Below, piece after piece: positions 48,001 through 51,000 of a stretch of 64,000 bases of DNA. The DNA is from Okamejei kenojei (lineage: Eukaryota): contig CM069148.1 in the NCBI GenBank assembly GCA_035221665.1, forward strand, positions 51,522,001 to 51,586,000, read 5' to 3'. Position 1 is the first letter of the stretch. The number at the start of each line of letters is the position of its first letter. Made by a program: the position numbers.

Positions 48001-51000
48001 GTCATTCCTCCTTCTCCCCGGTCCTGTCAGGCAGAAGGTGCAGAAGCTTGAAAGTGCGCACCACCAGGCTCAGGAACAGCTTCTTCCCCTCTGTTATCAG
48101 GCTTCTGAACGGCCCTTCCATAAGCTAGGGTACTGTCCGATTCACCTCTACCCCATTGCGGACGTCAGTCTTTGTCTCTGGAACTGATGCATTACAATAC
48201 TTAGAACTATATTCTGCACTCTGTATCTTCCCCTTTGCTCTACCTATTGTATTTGAATTGGACTTAATTGTATCTATGTATAGTATATCTGATCTGTTTG
48301 GATAGCATGCAAAACAAAGCTTCTCATTGTACTTCACTACACGTCATGATGGTAAACCTAAACCTAAATCGAATCTCACTGAGTTACTCCAGTGCTTTGT
48401 GTATTTTGTTCAGGTAGTATTGTCACCTGGGTATAAATCTGGAAGGCAATAAAGAAAAACTTAGCAAAGTTCTAATGCCAACAAGTCTCTTGCTTTGTTG
48501 TAAGGCTTCCAATCTTTGGTTCAGATTCGTAACTTGAATTATGGAATCAGATCATTTAGCTTCTAATGAGCTTACAGCTTCACTATAAATGTATTTCAAG
48601 CTTTAGATGATACGTACATCTTTTCCTGTTTATTGAAGTCAGGCTCTGATGAATTAAAGAAATAAAGAAACAATGAAAAAGCAATGCGTACAAATGAGAT
48701 GTGTGGGGCAAGTGTTTTACACAGAAAGTGGTGGGTGCTTGGAACGCACTACCAGGGGTGGTGGTGGAGGCAGATACGTCAGTGGTGTTTAAGAGGCTTT
48801 TAGATAGGCACATGGATATGCAGGGAATGGAGGGTTGTGGATCATACACAGCCAAATGAGATCAGTGTGGGAAGGAACTGCAGATGTTGGTTTAAACCGA
48901 AGATAGACACAAAATGCTGGAGTAACTAAGTGGGACAGGCAATATCTCTGTGGAGAAGGAATGGGTGGCATTTAGGGTCGAGACCGTTCTTCAGACTGAT
49001 GGACAAAGCTAGTCTAAAGGGAATTTGTTTTCCCCTGGAGGACACATGATGCTAGGCATCATGTGTAGGAAAGAACTGCAGATGCTGGTTTAAATCGGAG
49101 GTAGACTCAGAATGCTGGAGTAACTCAGCAGGACAGGTAGCATCTCTGGAGAGAAGGAATGGGCGACGTTTCGGGTCGACCCAAAACGTCCCGCTGAGTT
49201 ACTCCAGCATTTTGTGTCTACCCATGCTAGGCATCATGCTCAGCATAAACATTGTGGGCCGAAGGGCCCGTTCCTGTGCTGTACTACGTTCTATGTTCTC
49301 TACAATGTTTACAGATGATGGAGAAATTGTACTAAATTGGGATTGCTGTATTGCAGGCGAGAACTGGATGCTGCAACGTAATGTTTATTACAATGAGACG
49401 AAGCTAGTCTGAAGGGAATTAGTTTTCCCTAGAAGGGCACATGAAATTGCTAAGTCAAGTTCAGCATCAAACGGGCTTTGGATGCTTTATTGCCTATTAA
49501 AATTTATGTTCACTGAAAAAAAATGTTACTCCTAAAATGATTTGACATAGCTGCATCTGGAAGGTTAAACAAAGCCCTTTTTTATATAAAAGTATGATTT
49601 TTATTCAGTTGATAGTGACCATTTACTGTATTAAAATCCAACGGGTTCACATGAAAGCCATGTTTAAATCATGATTTATTTTTTCTTTATTTTAATTTAA
49701 TACTTTTTGCATTTTCTGTTTCCAATTATCACAAAAAGTTCTCCTTTTTGTTTTGAGTTATTTTTCTCTTTCCCAAATCCTCCTTGCTCCCCTCAAACAT
49801 CCCTCCGATTCTCTCTTATTTTTAGTTAACTTTGTTCCCTTCCTTGGCCCTACACATTTTACTTTGCTTTCTTAAATGTTTAACTACAGCCTTCTCCCAA
49901 TTATTCACCCCATCTCTTATTCCCTTTTTTCTAATGCTCTTTGGTATTCATTATTTCTTCATCGCATCTTCTTCTGTTGGTTTTTTAACTTAATTCTCTT
50001 ATATTTCCTTTACTTGATTCTCTCCTTTGTTCTCTACTTCTTTTAATGAAATATTTTCTTGTTCAGCATTTGTCAAATCTTTTTTAGATCTTTTCTAGGT
50101 TCAATTATTCCGTGCATCATATTTCGCACTTCCACATTTTTTTTTCTCCCGTCGTCCAGTTTTTTCCAATTCAATTTTCCACCTCCTCTTTGCCTGGGAA
50201 TAAAAAATGATTGGAAAGGTTAAGGTTTATTGTTGTCACGTGTACCAAGGTAGAGTTTCGCATGCTGGCCAATAAGATAATATCATACATAAACACAATC
50301 AAATCAGACTCAAGTACAACAGGTAGAGTAAAGGCGAAGATACAGAGTGCAGAATATAGTTCTCAGCATTGTAGCGCATCAGTTCCAGAGACAAAGACTG
50401 ATGTTCGCAATGGGGTAGTGGTGAATTGGACAGTGCCCCAGGTTATGGAAGGACCATTCAAAAGCCTGATAACAGAGGGGAAGAAGCTGTTCCTGAGTAT
50501 AGTGGTGCGCACCTTCAAGCTTCTACACCTTTTGCCTGACGGGACCGGGGAGAAGGAGAAATGACCGGGGTGGGACACGTCTTTGATGTTGTTAGCTGCT
50601 TTTCTCAGGCAGCTTGAGCAGCATCTGTGGAGGAAATGATCAAACAATGTTTTGGGTTGGGGCCCTTCTTCAGAGTGATGTAGGGGGGTGGGAGAAAGCT
50701 GGAAAAGAGAGGAGGGGGCAGGACAAAGTCGGGCAAGTGATGTGAAGCTAGTTAGGTTTCTTCACACCTGAAGCAAATCGTGATCTCAAGTGGTATCCAA
50801 TGTCCACAATGGGTAGAGGTGAATTAGCTTATGGAAGGACCATTCAGGTGCCATAACAGAGGGGGTGATTTCCAATTACCTTAATTTTTTTATTACTTTA
50901 ATTTCCCTGGTTACTGATGCCCGATTAATGGACATGCCTACATATGATTGAGCTCCCATAATATAAATGCATAAGTCTGACCTTCCTTCCTATGAATGAC

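What the first reader, a model, noticed from the sequence alone, without database searches (positions are those of the whole stretch)
49049..49238. 100-200 bp non-coding PLE units inserted on their own, with 11-15 bp TSDs (retrozyme/MITE-like family)
Seen: five short units consisting only of terminal-repeat sequence are each bracketed by a direct repeat. These are 15 bp (49049-63/49224-38), 11 bp (9729-39/9940-50), 14 bp with 1 mismatch (36440-53/36631-44), 13 bp (47459-71/47577-89) and 11 bp (58353-63/58459-69). Some are palindromes, some centre-deleted palindromes, some single arms. Inference: they were inserted in their present short form, most plausibly by target-primed reverse transcription using PLE RT/GIY-YIG in trans, and are not eroded full-length elements. 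Combined with the hammerhead core, this suggests a very abundant non-autonomous, ribozyme-bearing retroelement family.
Basis: partly seen in the sequence, partly recalled or inferred. Interest (0 to 1): 0.7.

Follow-up and report, generated by a model that had tools for sequence, protein, structure and literature searches.

The report
Short Penelope-type retroelement end-fragments with duplications
The flanking repeats are real footprints showing that these 100-200 bp units were pasted into a skate or ray genome in their short form, but they look like ordinary end-fragments of Penelope-like retroelements, single or paired head-to-head, not a new ribozyme-carrying element.

Summary
All five flanking direct repeats are at the stated coordinates. 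They are far more frequent than chance: 5 of 40 family units score >=11 against 0.14 expected. A sixth unit (25062-25191) has a 9-bp repeat. The units belong to a ~133-nt module present 54 times, about 7% of the window.

The ends of the copies give its orientation. The strand carrying the hammerhead-like core is the sense strand.
- 3' ends fall in two classes about 33 nt apart (23 and 18 of 54).
- 5' ends cluster just upstream of the core (26 of 54).
- Four copies extend further upstream.
- Close pairs are head-to-head in 12 of 17 cases.

Variable duplications, an optional ~30-nt tail, usually at one end only, and head-to-head pairs joined at a palindrome are published hallmarks of Penelope-like insertions. 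So insertion in short form by target-primed reverse transcription is supported.

The retrozyme/MITE reading is not supported:
- there are no head-to-tail arrays;
- no Rfam hammerhead matches;
- the focal unit has no CUGANGA box on either strand;
- no Penelope protein was detected in the window; the only RT is a CR1-type LINE.

Whether there is a dedicated non-autonomous master is unresolved. Verdict: new member of a known kind.

The parts
49049..49063 (.). Left copy of the 15-bp target-site duplication of the focal unit.
   Evidence: identical to 49224-49238. Exact repeats of 11 nt or more occurred in 8 of 8000 random placements and none was longer than 12.
49064..49180 (-). Left arm of the focal twin. 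Its sense (hammerhead-core) strand is the minus strand. Its 3' end, with the ~33-nt tail, lies at 49064 and its 5' end is cut short at about model position 115. It therefore has the GAAA-CG-UC half of the core but no CUGANGA box.
   Evidence: 49067-49180, model 2-115; sequence; no CUGANGA box.
49181..49223 (+). Right arm of the focal twin, sense strand plus. It joins the left arm across a short palindrome inside the stem II sequence. It has an internal deletion of about 32 nt. It ends at the tail-less 3' site (about model position 37) followed by three extra C.
   Evidence: 49188-49225, model 32-69; sequence read against the family alignment; the unit folds as one hairpin, z = -9.3.
49224..49238 (.). 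Right copy of the 15-bp target-site duplication of the focal unit.
9729..9950 (.). Twin unit 9740-9939 with its 11-bp duplication (9729-39 and 9940-50). The left arm covers model positions 58-132 and the right arm 2-131 (tail present). The right arm keeps a full core pattern.
   Evidence: hairpin of -105 kcal/mol, z = -12.8.
36440..36644 (.). Twin unit 36454-36630 with its 14-bp duplication (one mismatch). The left arm starts at the tail-less site (about model position 34). The right arm reaches the tail-bearing terminus. The centre is partly missing.
47459..47589 (-). Single arm 47472-47576 with its 13-bp duplication. The 3' end is tail-less (about model position 35). The 5' end lies at the usual boundary plus 7 extra nt. 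The core carries a G-to-A change in the GAAA box.
58353..58469 (-). Single arm 58364-58458 with its 11-bp duplication. The 3' end is tail-less (about model position 33). The full core pattern is kept.
25053..25200 (-). Sixth unit, not in the finding. It is a single arm of an older subfamily (25062-25191) with a 9-bp duplication at 25053-61 and 25192-200. The tail is present. The box reads CUGAUGA, but GAAA has decayed.
57786..58039 (+). One of four copies that continue at least 80-100 nt upstream of the core into a shared C-rich sequence. The others are 2281-2506 (+), 50617-50816 (-) and 31575-31690 (+). They show that a longer parent sequence exists.

Best explanation
The units are insertion products of a Penelope-like (PLE-type) retrotransposition machinery. 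It copied only the last ~100 or ~133 nt of its RNA template.

The sense strand is the one that carries the minimal hammerhead-type core. That core is CUGANGA, one extra nucleotide, a G-C-closed stem II, then GAAA-CG-UC.

Proposed mechanism:
1. The target is cut with a stagger of 9-15 bp. This gives the duplication.
2. cDNA synthesis starts at one of two sites on the RNA, about 33 nt apart. This gives copies with or without the 'tail'.
3. Most copies end 4-5 nt upstream of the CUGANGA box. Some are cut shorter and a few run further upstream.
4. Single arms come from one cDNA.
5. Palindromic units are two copies joined 5'-end to 5'-end. They arise either because both cut target strands primed synthesis, or because the cDNA primed on itself at a short palindrome. 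That palindrome is TCAG-N-CTGA at the usual junction and TCGA in the focal unit.

What is shown: the duplications, the orientation, the two 3'-end classes, the head-to-head bias, and the presence and decay of the core motif.

What is inferred: that a PLE reverse transcriptase/GIY-YIG endonuclease did this in trans, how the twins formed, and that the copies are inert after insertion.
For: 1. Duplications of 9, 11, 11, 13, 14 and 15 bp flank six units, far above chance.
2. Orientation. Four copies extend beyond the centre-side end into shared sequence. Outer flanks share nothing beyond neighbouring repeats. The centre side is therefore 5'.
3. 3' ends are bimodal. 23 of 54 arms end at model position <=9 and 18 of 54 at positions 29-39. 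Sequence beyond the truncated ends is 12-45% identical to the consensus, which is background. Of the nine 3' ends that touch a duplication in the six units, four carry the tail, four are tail-less (positions 33, 34, 35, 37) and one is at about position 58. All three duplication-flanked twins have the tail on exactly one arm.
4. Among neighbouring arms no more than 100 nt apart, 12 of 17 pairs are head-to-head, 2 are tail-to-tail in order and 3 are same-strand.
5. The core pattern CUGANGA-N8..22-GAAA-NN-UH occurs 10 times against 0.42 in shuffles. Its extra nucleotide after position 9, its G-C closing pair and its palindromic ACGU are the features listed for metazoan PLE minimal hammerheads (PMC4209133, whole text read apart from the last two parts).
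6. Published PLE structure matches.
- Variable duplication length (PMC8557442 passage).
- An inverted pLTR with a 9-bp duplication, a 31-bp optional tail on one inverted pLTR, palindromes at head-to-head junctions, and pLTRs sufficient in cis (PMC3846280 passages).
- A 30-40-bp tail, often at one end only (PMC8557442).
- The tail corresponds to the sequence between two reverse-transcription start sites, both target strands are cut and extended, and the start site lies 85-92 nt beyond the hammerhead cut (PMC11167929 main text). Here the two ends lie about 63-67 and 99-101 nt beyond the predicted cut.
Against: - No PLE reverse transcriptase or GIY-YIG domain was found in the window. Pfam on 386 of 408 stop-to-stop ORFs of >=55 aa gave only one RVT_1 and one ALKBH8_N (22 ORFs from 59.4-64 kb were not scanned). 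That RT is a CR1/jockey-type LINE.
- A 44-aa reading of the sense strand matches no protein of 78-2000 aa. Continuity with a PLE gene is therefore not shown.
- No Rfam hammerhead hit was found.
- Helix I would have only about 2 base pairs, by my reading.
- Single sense-strand arms fold no better than shuffles (z = -0.04 to -0.75), and the minimum-energy fold does not form stem II.
- 34 of 40 units have no detectable duplication.
- 13 of 54 arms have a 3' end in neither class.
- Partner arms of twins are not each other's nearest relatives. One 'twin' (60511/60654) combines two subfamilies, so it is probably two events.
- Three arms abut 5'-truncated LINE segments in the same orientation. This leaves some room for LINE-driven template switching.
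Confidence: 0.6

Rival explanations
1. A dedicated, very abundant non-autonomous family with its own short master copies carries a working hammerhead. It spreads like a retrozyme, through self-cleaved or circular unit-length RNA, using PLE proteins in trans.
For: - 26 of 54 arms share one 5' boundary, and only 4 copies run further upstream. This suggests a discrete short RNA rather than random truncation.
- The youngest subfamily supplies five of the six duplication-flanked units.
- Derivation of retrozymes from PLE pLTRs has been proposed for vertebrates (bioRxiv 10.64898/2026.07.22.740005, abstract and Results part 1).
- Non-autonomous PLE relatives exist in algae (PMC8557442 passage).
Against: - There are no head-to-tail arrays, and same-strand neighbours are 3 of 17.
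- No copy boundary falls at the predicted GUC cleavage site. The centre-side ends nearest to it are model positions 96, 96, 89, 89 and 88, against a cut between 100 and 99.
- No canonical hammerhead was found.
- The core is intact in only 9 of 23 arms that cover it and is absent from the focal unit.
- In the anole PLE, the RNA needed for insertion extends beyond the reverse-transcription start site (PMC11167929). A copy ending at that site would lack part of its own cis signal.
Confidence: 0.2
2. A SINE-like element read on the opposite strand. Its invariant 3' end would be the centre-side end (a stem-loop followed by about 13 nt). It would be mobilised by a CR1- or L2-type LINE and truncated at the 5' (outer) side.
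For: - LINEs are the only reverse-transcriptase source detected in the window.
- 26 of 54 arms share the centre-side end.
- Three arms directly adjoin 5'-truncated LINE segments.
Against: - 28 of 54 arms lack that supposed 3' end.
- The supposed 5' truncations pile up in one 11-nt bin (18 of 54) instead of spreading.
- Four copies continue past the supposed 3' end into shared sequence.
- By my reading, neither end of the module resembles the CR1-type or L2-type LINE 3' ends present in the window.
- No tRNA-like head was found (ARAGORN: 0 genes).
- This reading does not explain head-to-head twins sharing one duplication.
Confidence: 0.07
3. A MITE or foldback DNA transposon whose arms are terminal inverted repeats, moved by a transposase.
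For: - 12 units are inverted repeats with little or no spacer.
- They fold into long hairpins.
- Duplications are present.
Against: - The duplication lengths are 9, 11, 11, 13, 14 and 15 bp, not one fixed length.
- Three single arms have their own duplications.
- In the three duplication-flanked twins the two outer termini differ by about 30-56 nt. The ends are therefore not matched inverted termini.
Confidence: 0.04
4. Eroded remains. Longer PLE copies were inserted between these duplications and later lost their interior.
For: - Long perfect palindromes are unstable, by general knowledge.
- Two of the five units lack the palindrome centre, and the focal unit also has an internal deletion of about 32 nt.
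- Solo pLTRs ascribed to recombination or deletion are reported in rotifers (PMC3846280 passage).
Against: - Single arms 47472-47576, 58364-58458 and 25062-25191 run without a break from a canonical 3' end to the usual 5' boundary and touch the duplication on both sides. There is no trace of a deletion scar.
- Twin 9740-9939 is continuous through the centre.
Confidence: 0.06

Closest known systems
Solo and inverted pseudo-LTRs, and 5'-truncated insertions, of endonuclease-bearing Penelope-like elements (Penelope/Poseidon/Neptune type), as described in rotifers, flies, fish and anole
   Same: - Duplications of variable length.
- An optional tail of about 31-40 nt on one end only.
- Head-to-head inverted copies with a palindrome at the junction.
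- Strong 5' truncation.
- A minimal hammerhead core near the 3' terminal region.
- Many solitary or oppositely paired motifs scattered in the genome, which the authors of PMC4209133 called 'probably related to truncated PLEs'.

Sources: PMC3846280, PMC8557442, PMC11167929, PMC4209133.
   Different: - No ORF-bearing relative is visible in this window.
- The copies are extremely short (95-200 bp) and dense (54 arms, about 7% of 64 kb).
- Half of them share one 5' boundary just upstream of the core, so a discrete short template is possible.
- The region is non-coding, whereas in the anole element the equivalent region is the start of the ORF.
Metazoan non-LTR retrozymes (Cervera and de la Pena 2020, PMC7229834; Li, Clavereau and Pollet 2026 preprint)
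   Same: - Small, non-coding and related to hammerheads.
- Duplications longer than 4 bp.
- Proposed dependence on PLE proteins and origin from pLTRs.
   Different: - Retrozymes are head-to-tail arrays of 150-450-bp units with canonical type I hammerheads, and they are expressed as circular RNA.
- Here there are no arrays.
- The core is the minimal PLE type.
- Copy boundaries do not coincide with the cleavage site.
Twin-priming inversions of L1 and chimeric LINE retrocopies
   Same: - Both target strands, or a template switch, create inverted or composite retrocopies bounded by one duplication.
   Different: - L1 twin priming inverts a different part of the same RNA and does not make palindromes.
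- Here both arms cover the same part of the template.

Membership tests
Penelope-like element insertion (truncated or solo pLTR-type copy) | Target-site duplication of variable length | tested here: met
   Duplications of 9, 11, 11, 13, 14 and 15 bp in six units. Variable length is stated for PLEs in a PMC8557442 passage.
Penelope-like element insertion (truncated or solo pLTR-type copy) | Optional 30-40-bp tail, meaning two alternative 3' ends, often on one end only of an inverted pair | tested here: met
   23 of 54 arms end at model position <=9 and 18 of 54 at positions 29-39. The three duplication-flanked twins each carry the tail on one arm only.
Penelope-like element insertion (truncated or solo pLTR-type copy) | Head-to-head inverted copy with a palindrome at the junction | tested here: met
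   12 of 17 close neighbour pairs are head-to-head in the sense orientation. The junctions lie on short palindromes.
Penelope-like element insertion (truncated or solo pLTR-type copy) | Minimal hammerhead motif of the PLE type | tested here: inconclusive
   The core boxes, the extra nucleotide, the G-C closing pair and the palindromic ACGU are present in the family. There are 10 full patterns against 0.42 in shuffles, and 9 of 23 arms are intact. Against this, helix I has only about 2 bp, Rfam gives no hit, and no fold supports it.
Penelope-like element insertion (truncated or solo pLTR-type copy) | Sequence continuity with an element encoding a telomerase-like RT and a GIY-YIG endonuclease | tested here: not met
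   None was found in this window. Pfam on 386 of 408 ORFs gave nothing of this kind, the only RT is CR1-type, and the sense-strand peptide has no protein match. The rest of the genome could not be searched, so for the family as a whole this remains untested.
Metazoan non-LTR retrozyme | Head-to-tail tandem array of 150-450-bp units | tested here: not met
   TRF found 7 arrays, the longest period being 22 nt, and none involves the module. Same-strand neighbours are 3 of 17.
Metazoan non-LTR retrozyme | Canonical type I hammerhead with helices I-III | tested here: not met
   No Rfam hammerhead family matched at the gathering threshold or at E<=10. The focal unit lacks the CUGANGA box.
Metazoan non-LTR retrozyme | Unit-length linear and circular RNA with ends at the cleavage site | not testable with these tools
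   No RNA data were available. The genomic copy ends do not fall at the predicted cut.
MITE (non-autonomous DNA transposon) | Matched terminal inverted repeats and a duplication of fixed length | tested here: not met
   The duplications are 9-15 bp. The outer termini of the twins are unequal. Single arms are duplicated on their own.
SINE | Pol III-type head (tRNA, 7SL or 5S) and a 3' end shared with a partner LINE | tested here: not met
   ARAGORN found 0 genes. By my reading, the module does not resemble the LINE 3' ends in the window. 7SL and 5S heads were checked only through the Rfam scans, which gave no hits.

The most novel reading that the evidence does not exclude
A module of about 100-133 nt, running from the hammerhead core to the reverse-transcription start sites, is by itself a sufficient template for the skate PLE machinery.

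The duplication-flanked head-to-head twins would then be natural footprints of insertion primed from both cut target strands, or of cDNA self-priming at the palindrome. So far this behaviour has been seen only in vitro, for one anole element.

A side effect would be that the family seeds the genome with thousands of near-perfect hairpin loci able to give double-stranded RNA.
Probability: 0.3. Interest if true: 0.5.

Novelty: new member of a known kind. Interest (0 to 1): 0.3.

Why it matters
The finding has practical and modest mechanistic value.

- **Annotation.** It gives a clean, testable way to annotate a very abundant repeat in an elasmobranch genome, through its orientation, its two 3' ends, its 5' boundary and its twin structure.
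- **Mechanism.** The optional tail and the head-to-head architecture described for rotifer, fly and anole Penelope-like elements also hold for very short copies in a cartilaginous fish. If confirmed genome-wide, the sharp pair of 3' ends would locate the reverse-transcription start sites of the skate element without biochemistry. The twins would bear on how both target strands are used.
- **What it does not show.** It does not reveal a new kind of element or a working ribozyme.

Tried and rejected
- **Rfam.** The whole window at the gathering threshold, the whole window at E<=10, and the focal 500 nt at E<=10 gave no hammerhead family. The only matches were weak hairpin-type ones (miRNA-precursor and plastid 3'UTR models) on the palindromic units.
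- **RT ORF 55033-55614 (-).** I took it for a possible PLE flanked by arms. It is a CR1/jockey-type LINE whose 3' end merely abuts arm 54288-54401.
- **Pfam.** I scanned 386 of 408 ORFs of >=55 aa and found no GIY-YIG domain and no second RT. One sub-threshold YidD match was ignored. 22 ORFs were left unscanned.
- **Sense-strand frame.** It is open in young copies. Older subfamilies carry a stop, and the peptide finds no protein, so I treat the open frame as chance.
- **Test for one-event twins.** I asked whether the arms of a twin are each other's nearest relatives. They are not. This is uninformative in a star-like family, apart from showing that 60511/60654 is a mixed pair.
- **Target motif.** The six duplications share no evident motif or AT-richness. 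The sample is too small to decide.
- **Literature.** Searches for PLEs in elasmobranchs found no description of this family.
- **Not possible here.** No eukaryotic genome collection, Repbase or Dfam was available. Empty orthologous sites, a genome-wide census and prior annotation of this family therefore stayed unchecked.
- **Supplements closed.** The hammerhead alignments of PMC4209133 and the species and family tables of the 2026 preprint could not be seen. They may already list this family.
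Full report
**1. The observation**

All five flanking direct repeats are present exactly where stated.
- 49049-63/49224-38: 15/15 identical.
- 9729-39/9940-50: 11/11.
- 36440-53/36631-44: 13/14.
- 47459-71/47577-89: 13/13.
- 58353-63/58459-69: 11/11.

To test them against chance I first defined the repeat family without reference to any flanking repeat. 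The five inner sequences hit 41 merged regions of the window by blastn. An alignment of 21 arm sequences gave a 133-position profile. With nhmmer this profile finds 54 arms at E<=0.01. They cover 4,726 bases, about 7% of the window.

Merging arms no more than 40 nt apart gives 40 units.
- Exact repeats >=11 nt across a unit's boundaries occur in 4 of 40 units, against 8 of 8000 random placements of equal length.
- With mismatch scoring, a score >=11 occurs in 5 of 40 units against 0.14 expected.
- A score >=9 occurs in 6 of 40 units against 0.42 expected.

The sixth unit is an older-subfamily single arm, 25062-25191, with a 9-bp repeat. The remaining 34 units show nothing above background. That fits their greater divergence, but it also means the duplications are documented for a minority of units.

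**2. What the family is**

Each arm is one ~133-nt module. One strand of it carries the following in order:
- CUGANGA;
- one extra nucleotide;
- a short stem closed by a G-C pair;
- GAAA, the dinucleotide CG, then UC.

How well the motif is kept:
- The full pattern occurs 10 times in the window against 0.42 in shuffles.
- Of the 23 arms that cover the core, 16 keep the first box, 12 keep GAAA-NN-UH, and 9 keep both.

Limits on calling it a ribozyme:
- No Rfam hammerhead model matches anywhere, even at E<=10.
- Helix I would have about two base pairs.
- Single arms fold no better than shuffled sequence.
- The focal unit 49064-49223 has no CUGANGA box on either strand.

The hammerhead relationship is therefore a resemblance at family level, not a demonstrated ribozyme.

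**3. Orientation and termini**

- Four copies continue at least 80-100 nt beyond the centre-side end into a shared C-rich sequence: 2281-2429, 31575-31690, 50655-50816 and 57786-57952.
- Nothing is shared beyond the outer end apart from neighbouring repeats.

In a retroelement that is truncated at its 5' end, the side that sometimes extends is the 5' side. The core-bearing strand is therefore the sense strand.

On that reading the 3' ends fall into two classes:
- model position <=9 in 23 of 54 arms;
- positions 29-39 in 18 of 54 arms;
- 13 arms fall elsewhere.

The sequence beyond the shorter ends is at background identity to the consensus.

The 5' ends peak at positions 128-132 (26 of 54), which is 4-5 nt upstream of CUGANGA. 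The rest spread from position 52 to 127.

The ends that touch a duplication show that both 3' classes are features of insertion and not of erosion. Four carry the long form and four the short form (positions 33, 34, 35, 37). One lies at about position 58.

**4. Twins**

Among neighbouring arms no more than 100 nt apart:
- 12 of 17 pairs are head-to-head in the sense orientation;
- 2 are in the opposite order;
- 3 are on the same strand.

The three twins that share one duplication (9740-9939, 36454-36630, 49064-49223) each have the long 3' form on exactly one arm. Their junctions lie on short palindromes: TCAG-N-CTGA at the usual boundary and TCGA within stem II in the focal unit.

Not every apparent twin is one event. 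In 60511/60654 a young arm lies next to an arm of an older subfamily.

**5. Comparison with the literature**

These features are the published anatomy of PLE insertions.
- Variable duplication length comes from a variable distance between the two strand cuts (PMC8557442 passage).
- Strong 5' truncation is usual. An inverted 5'-truncated copy sits at the 5' end. A 30-40-bp tail is often present at one end only (PMC8557442 passages).
- In rotifers there is an inverted pLTR with a 9-bp duplication and a 31-bp tail on one inverted pLTR. Palindromes sit at head-to-head junctions and are read as self-priming. pLTRs suffice in cis, and solo pLTRs exist (PMC3846280 passages).
- In the anole element the tail corresponds to the sequence between two reverse-transcription start sites. 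Both target strands are cut and extended. The start site lies 85-92 nt beyond the hammerhead cut (PMC11167929 main text).

In the skate module the two 3' ends lie about 63-67 and 99-101 nt beyond the predicted cut.

Cervera and De la Pena already noted thousands of solitary minimal hammerheads, and pairs on opposite strands 100-700 bp apart. They judged them 'probably related to truncated PLEs'.

**6. What is not shown**

- No PLE protein was detected in the window. Pfam on 386 of 408 ORFs of >=55 aa finds one RVT_1 and one ALKBH8_N domain.
- That RT belongs to a CR1/jockey-type LINE. Its named relatives include rays, sharks, turtles and birds. The shark and ray relatives (75-79% identical) place the window in an elasmobranch.
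- The sense-strand peptide finds no protein.
- The link to a PLE enzyme is therefore inference from structure.

Retrozyme membership fails on two defining features. There are no head-to-tail arrays and no canonical hammerhead. These are the features given in the PMC7229834 passages.

A MITE is excluded by the unequal termini, the variable duplication length and the separately duplicated single arms.

A LINE-driven, opposite-strand reading explains fewer termini (26 of 54, against 41 of 54). It is also contradicted by the four extended copies.

**7. Verdict**

- The inference of insertion in short form by target-primed reverse transcription is supported.
- The retrozyme, MITE and 'ribozyme-bearing' labels are not supported.
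- Whether a discrete short master RNA exists is open. The shared 5' boundary argues for it. The extended copies, and the cis requirements reported for the anole element, argue against it.
- This is a new member of a known kind. Its main use is for annotation, and as natural evidence on the start sites and twin formation of PLE insertion.

**8. Left unchecked**

- Empty orthologous sites.
- A genome-wide census.
- Repbase or Dfam annotation of this family.
- RNA data.
- The supplementary hammerhead alignments and species tables of the cited papers.

Noticed in passing
window 54403-57559 (minus strand): A degraded CR1/jockey-type LINE. There are several broken ORFs, one with an RVT_1 domain at 55033-55614. 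Named relatives include rays, sharks, turtles and birds. Its 3' end, with short repeats of about 8 nt, stops at about 54403 and directly abuts the arm 54288-54401.
   Followed up: partly
window 44697-44777 with 44164-44688 (minus); 47874-48400 (plus); 50200-50677 (minus): In three places the tail-less 3' end of a sense-strand arm is followed at once, in the same orientation, by a 5'-truncated LINE ORF2 C-terminal and 3'UTR segment. One of these carries an ALKBH8_N Pfam hit. Two of the three share about 400 nt at roughly 89% identity and the same junction. These could be chimeric retrocopies made by template switching, or nested insertions. I did not resolve which.
   Followed up: partly
window 7903-7905, 8016-8018, 49221-49223: Three tail-less arm ends carry three extra C between the element end and the flank or duplication. 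This may be non-templated addition at the start of cDNA synthesis, or a variant master sequence.
   Followed up: no
window 48800-49310: The focal unit and the neighbouring arm 48865-48999 both lie inside one older CR1-type LINE 3' fragment. The arm 48865-48999 shows no duplication.
   Followed up: partly
window about 60635-60658: An 11-nt sequence is repeated in tandem between the two arms of 60511-60752. The two arms belong to different subfamilies.
   Followed up: no
window 7760-8016: A complex of four alternating arms (+ - + -) that looks like two successive centre-deleted twins. No clear duplication was found; the best candidate is 7 bp and is offset by 15 nt on one side.
   Followed up: no
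window 1653-1841, 42110-42232, 9752-9863: Palindromic units give weak sub-threshold matches to unrelated miRNA-precursor models in Rfam (61, 44 and 29 bits, far below the gathering scores). This reflects only their hairpin shape.
   Followed up: yes
window 5200-5222: A run of about 18 G directly follows the arm 5092-5199. It may correspond to the C-rich sequence that lies upstream of the core in the four extended copies.
   Followed up: no
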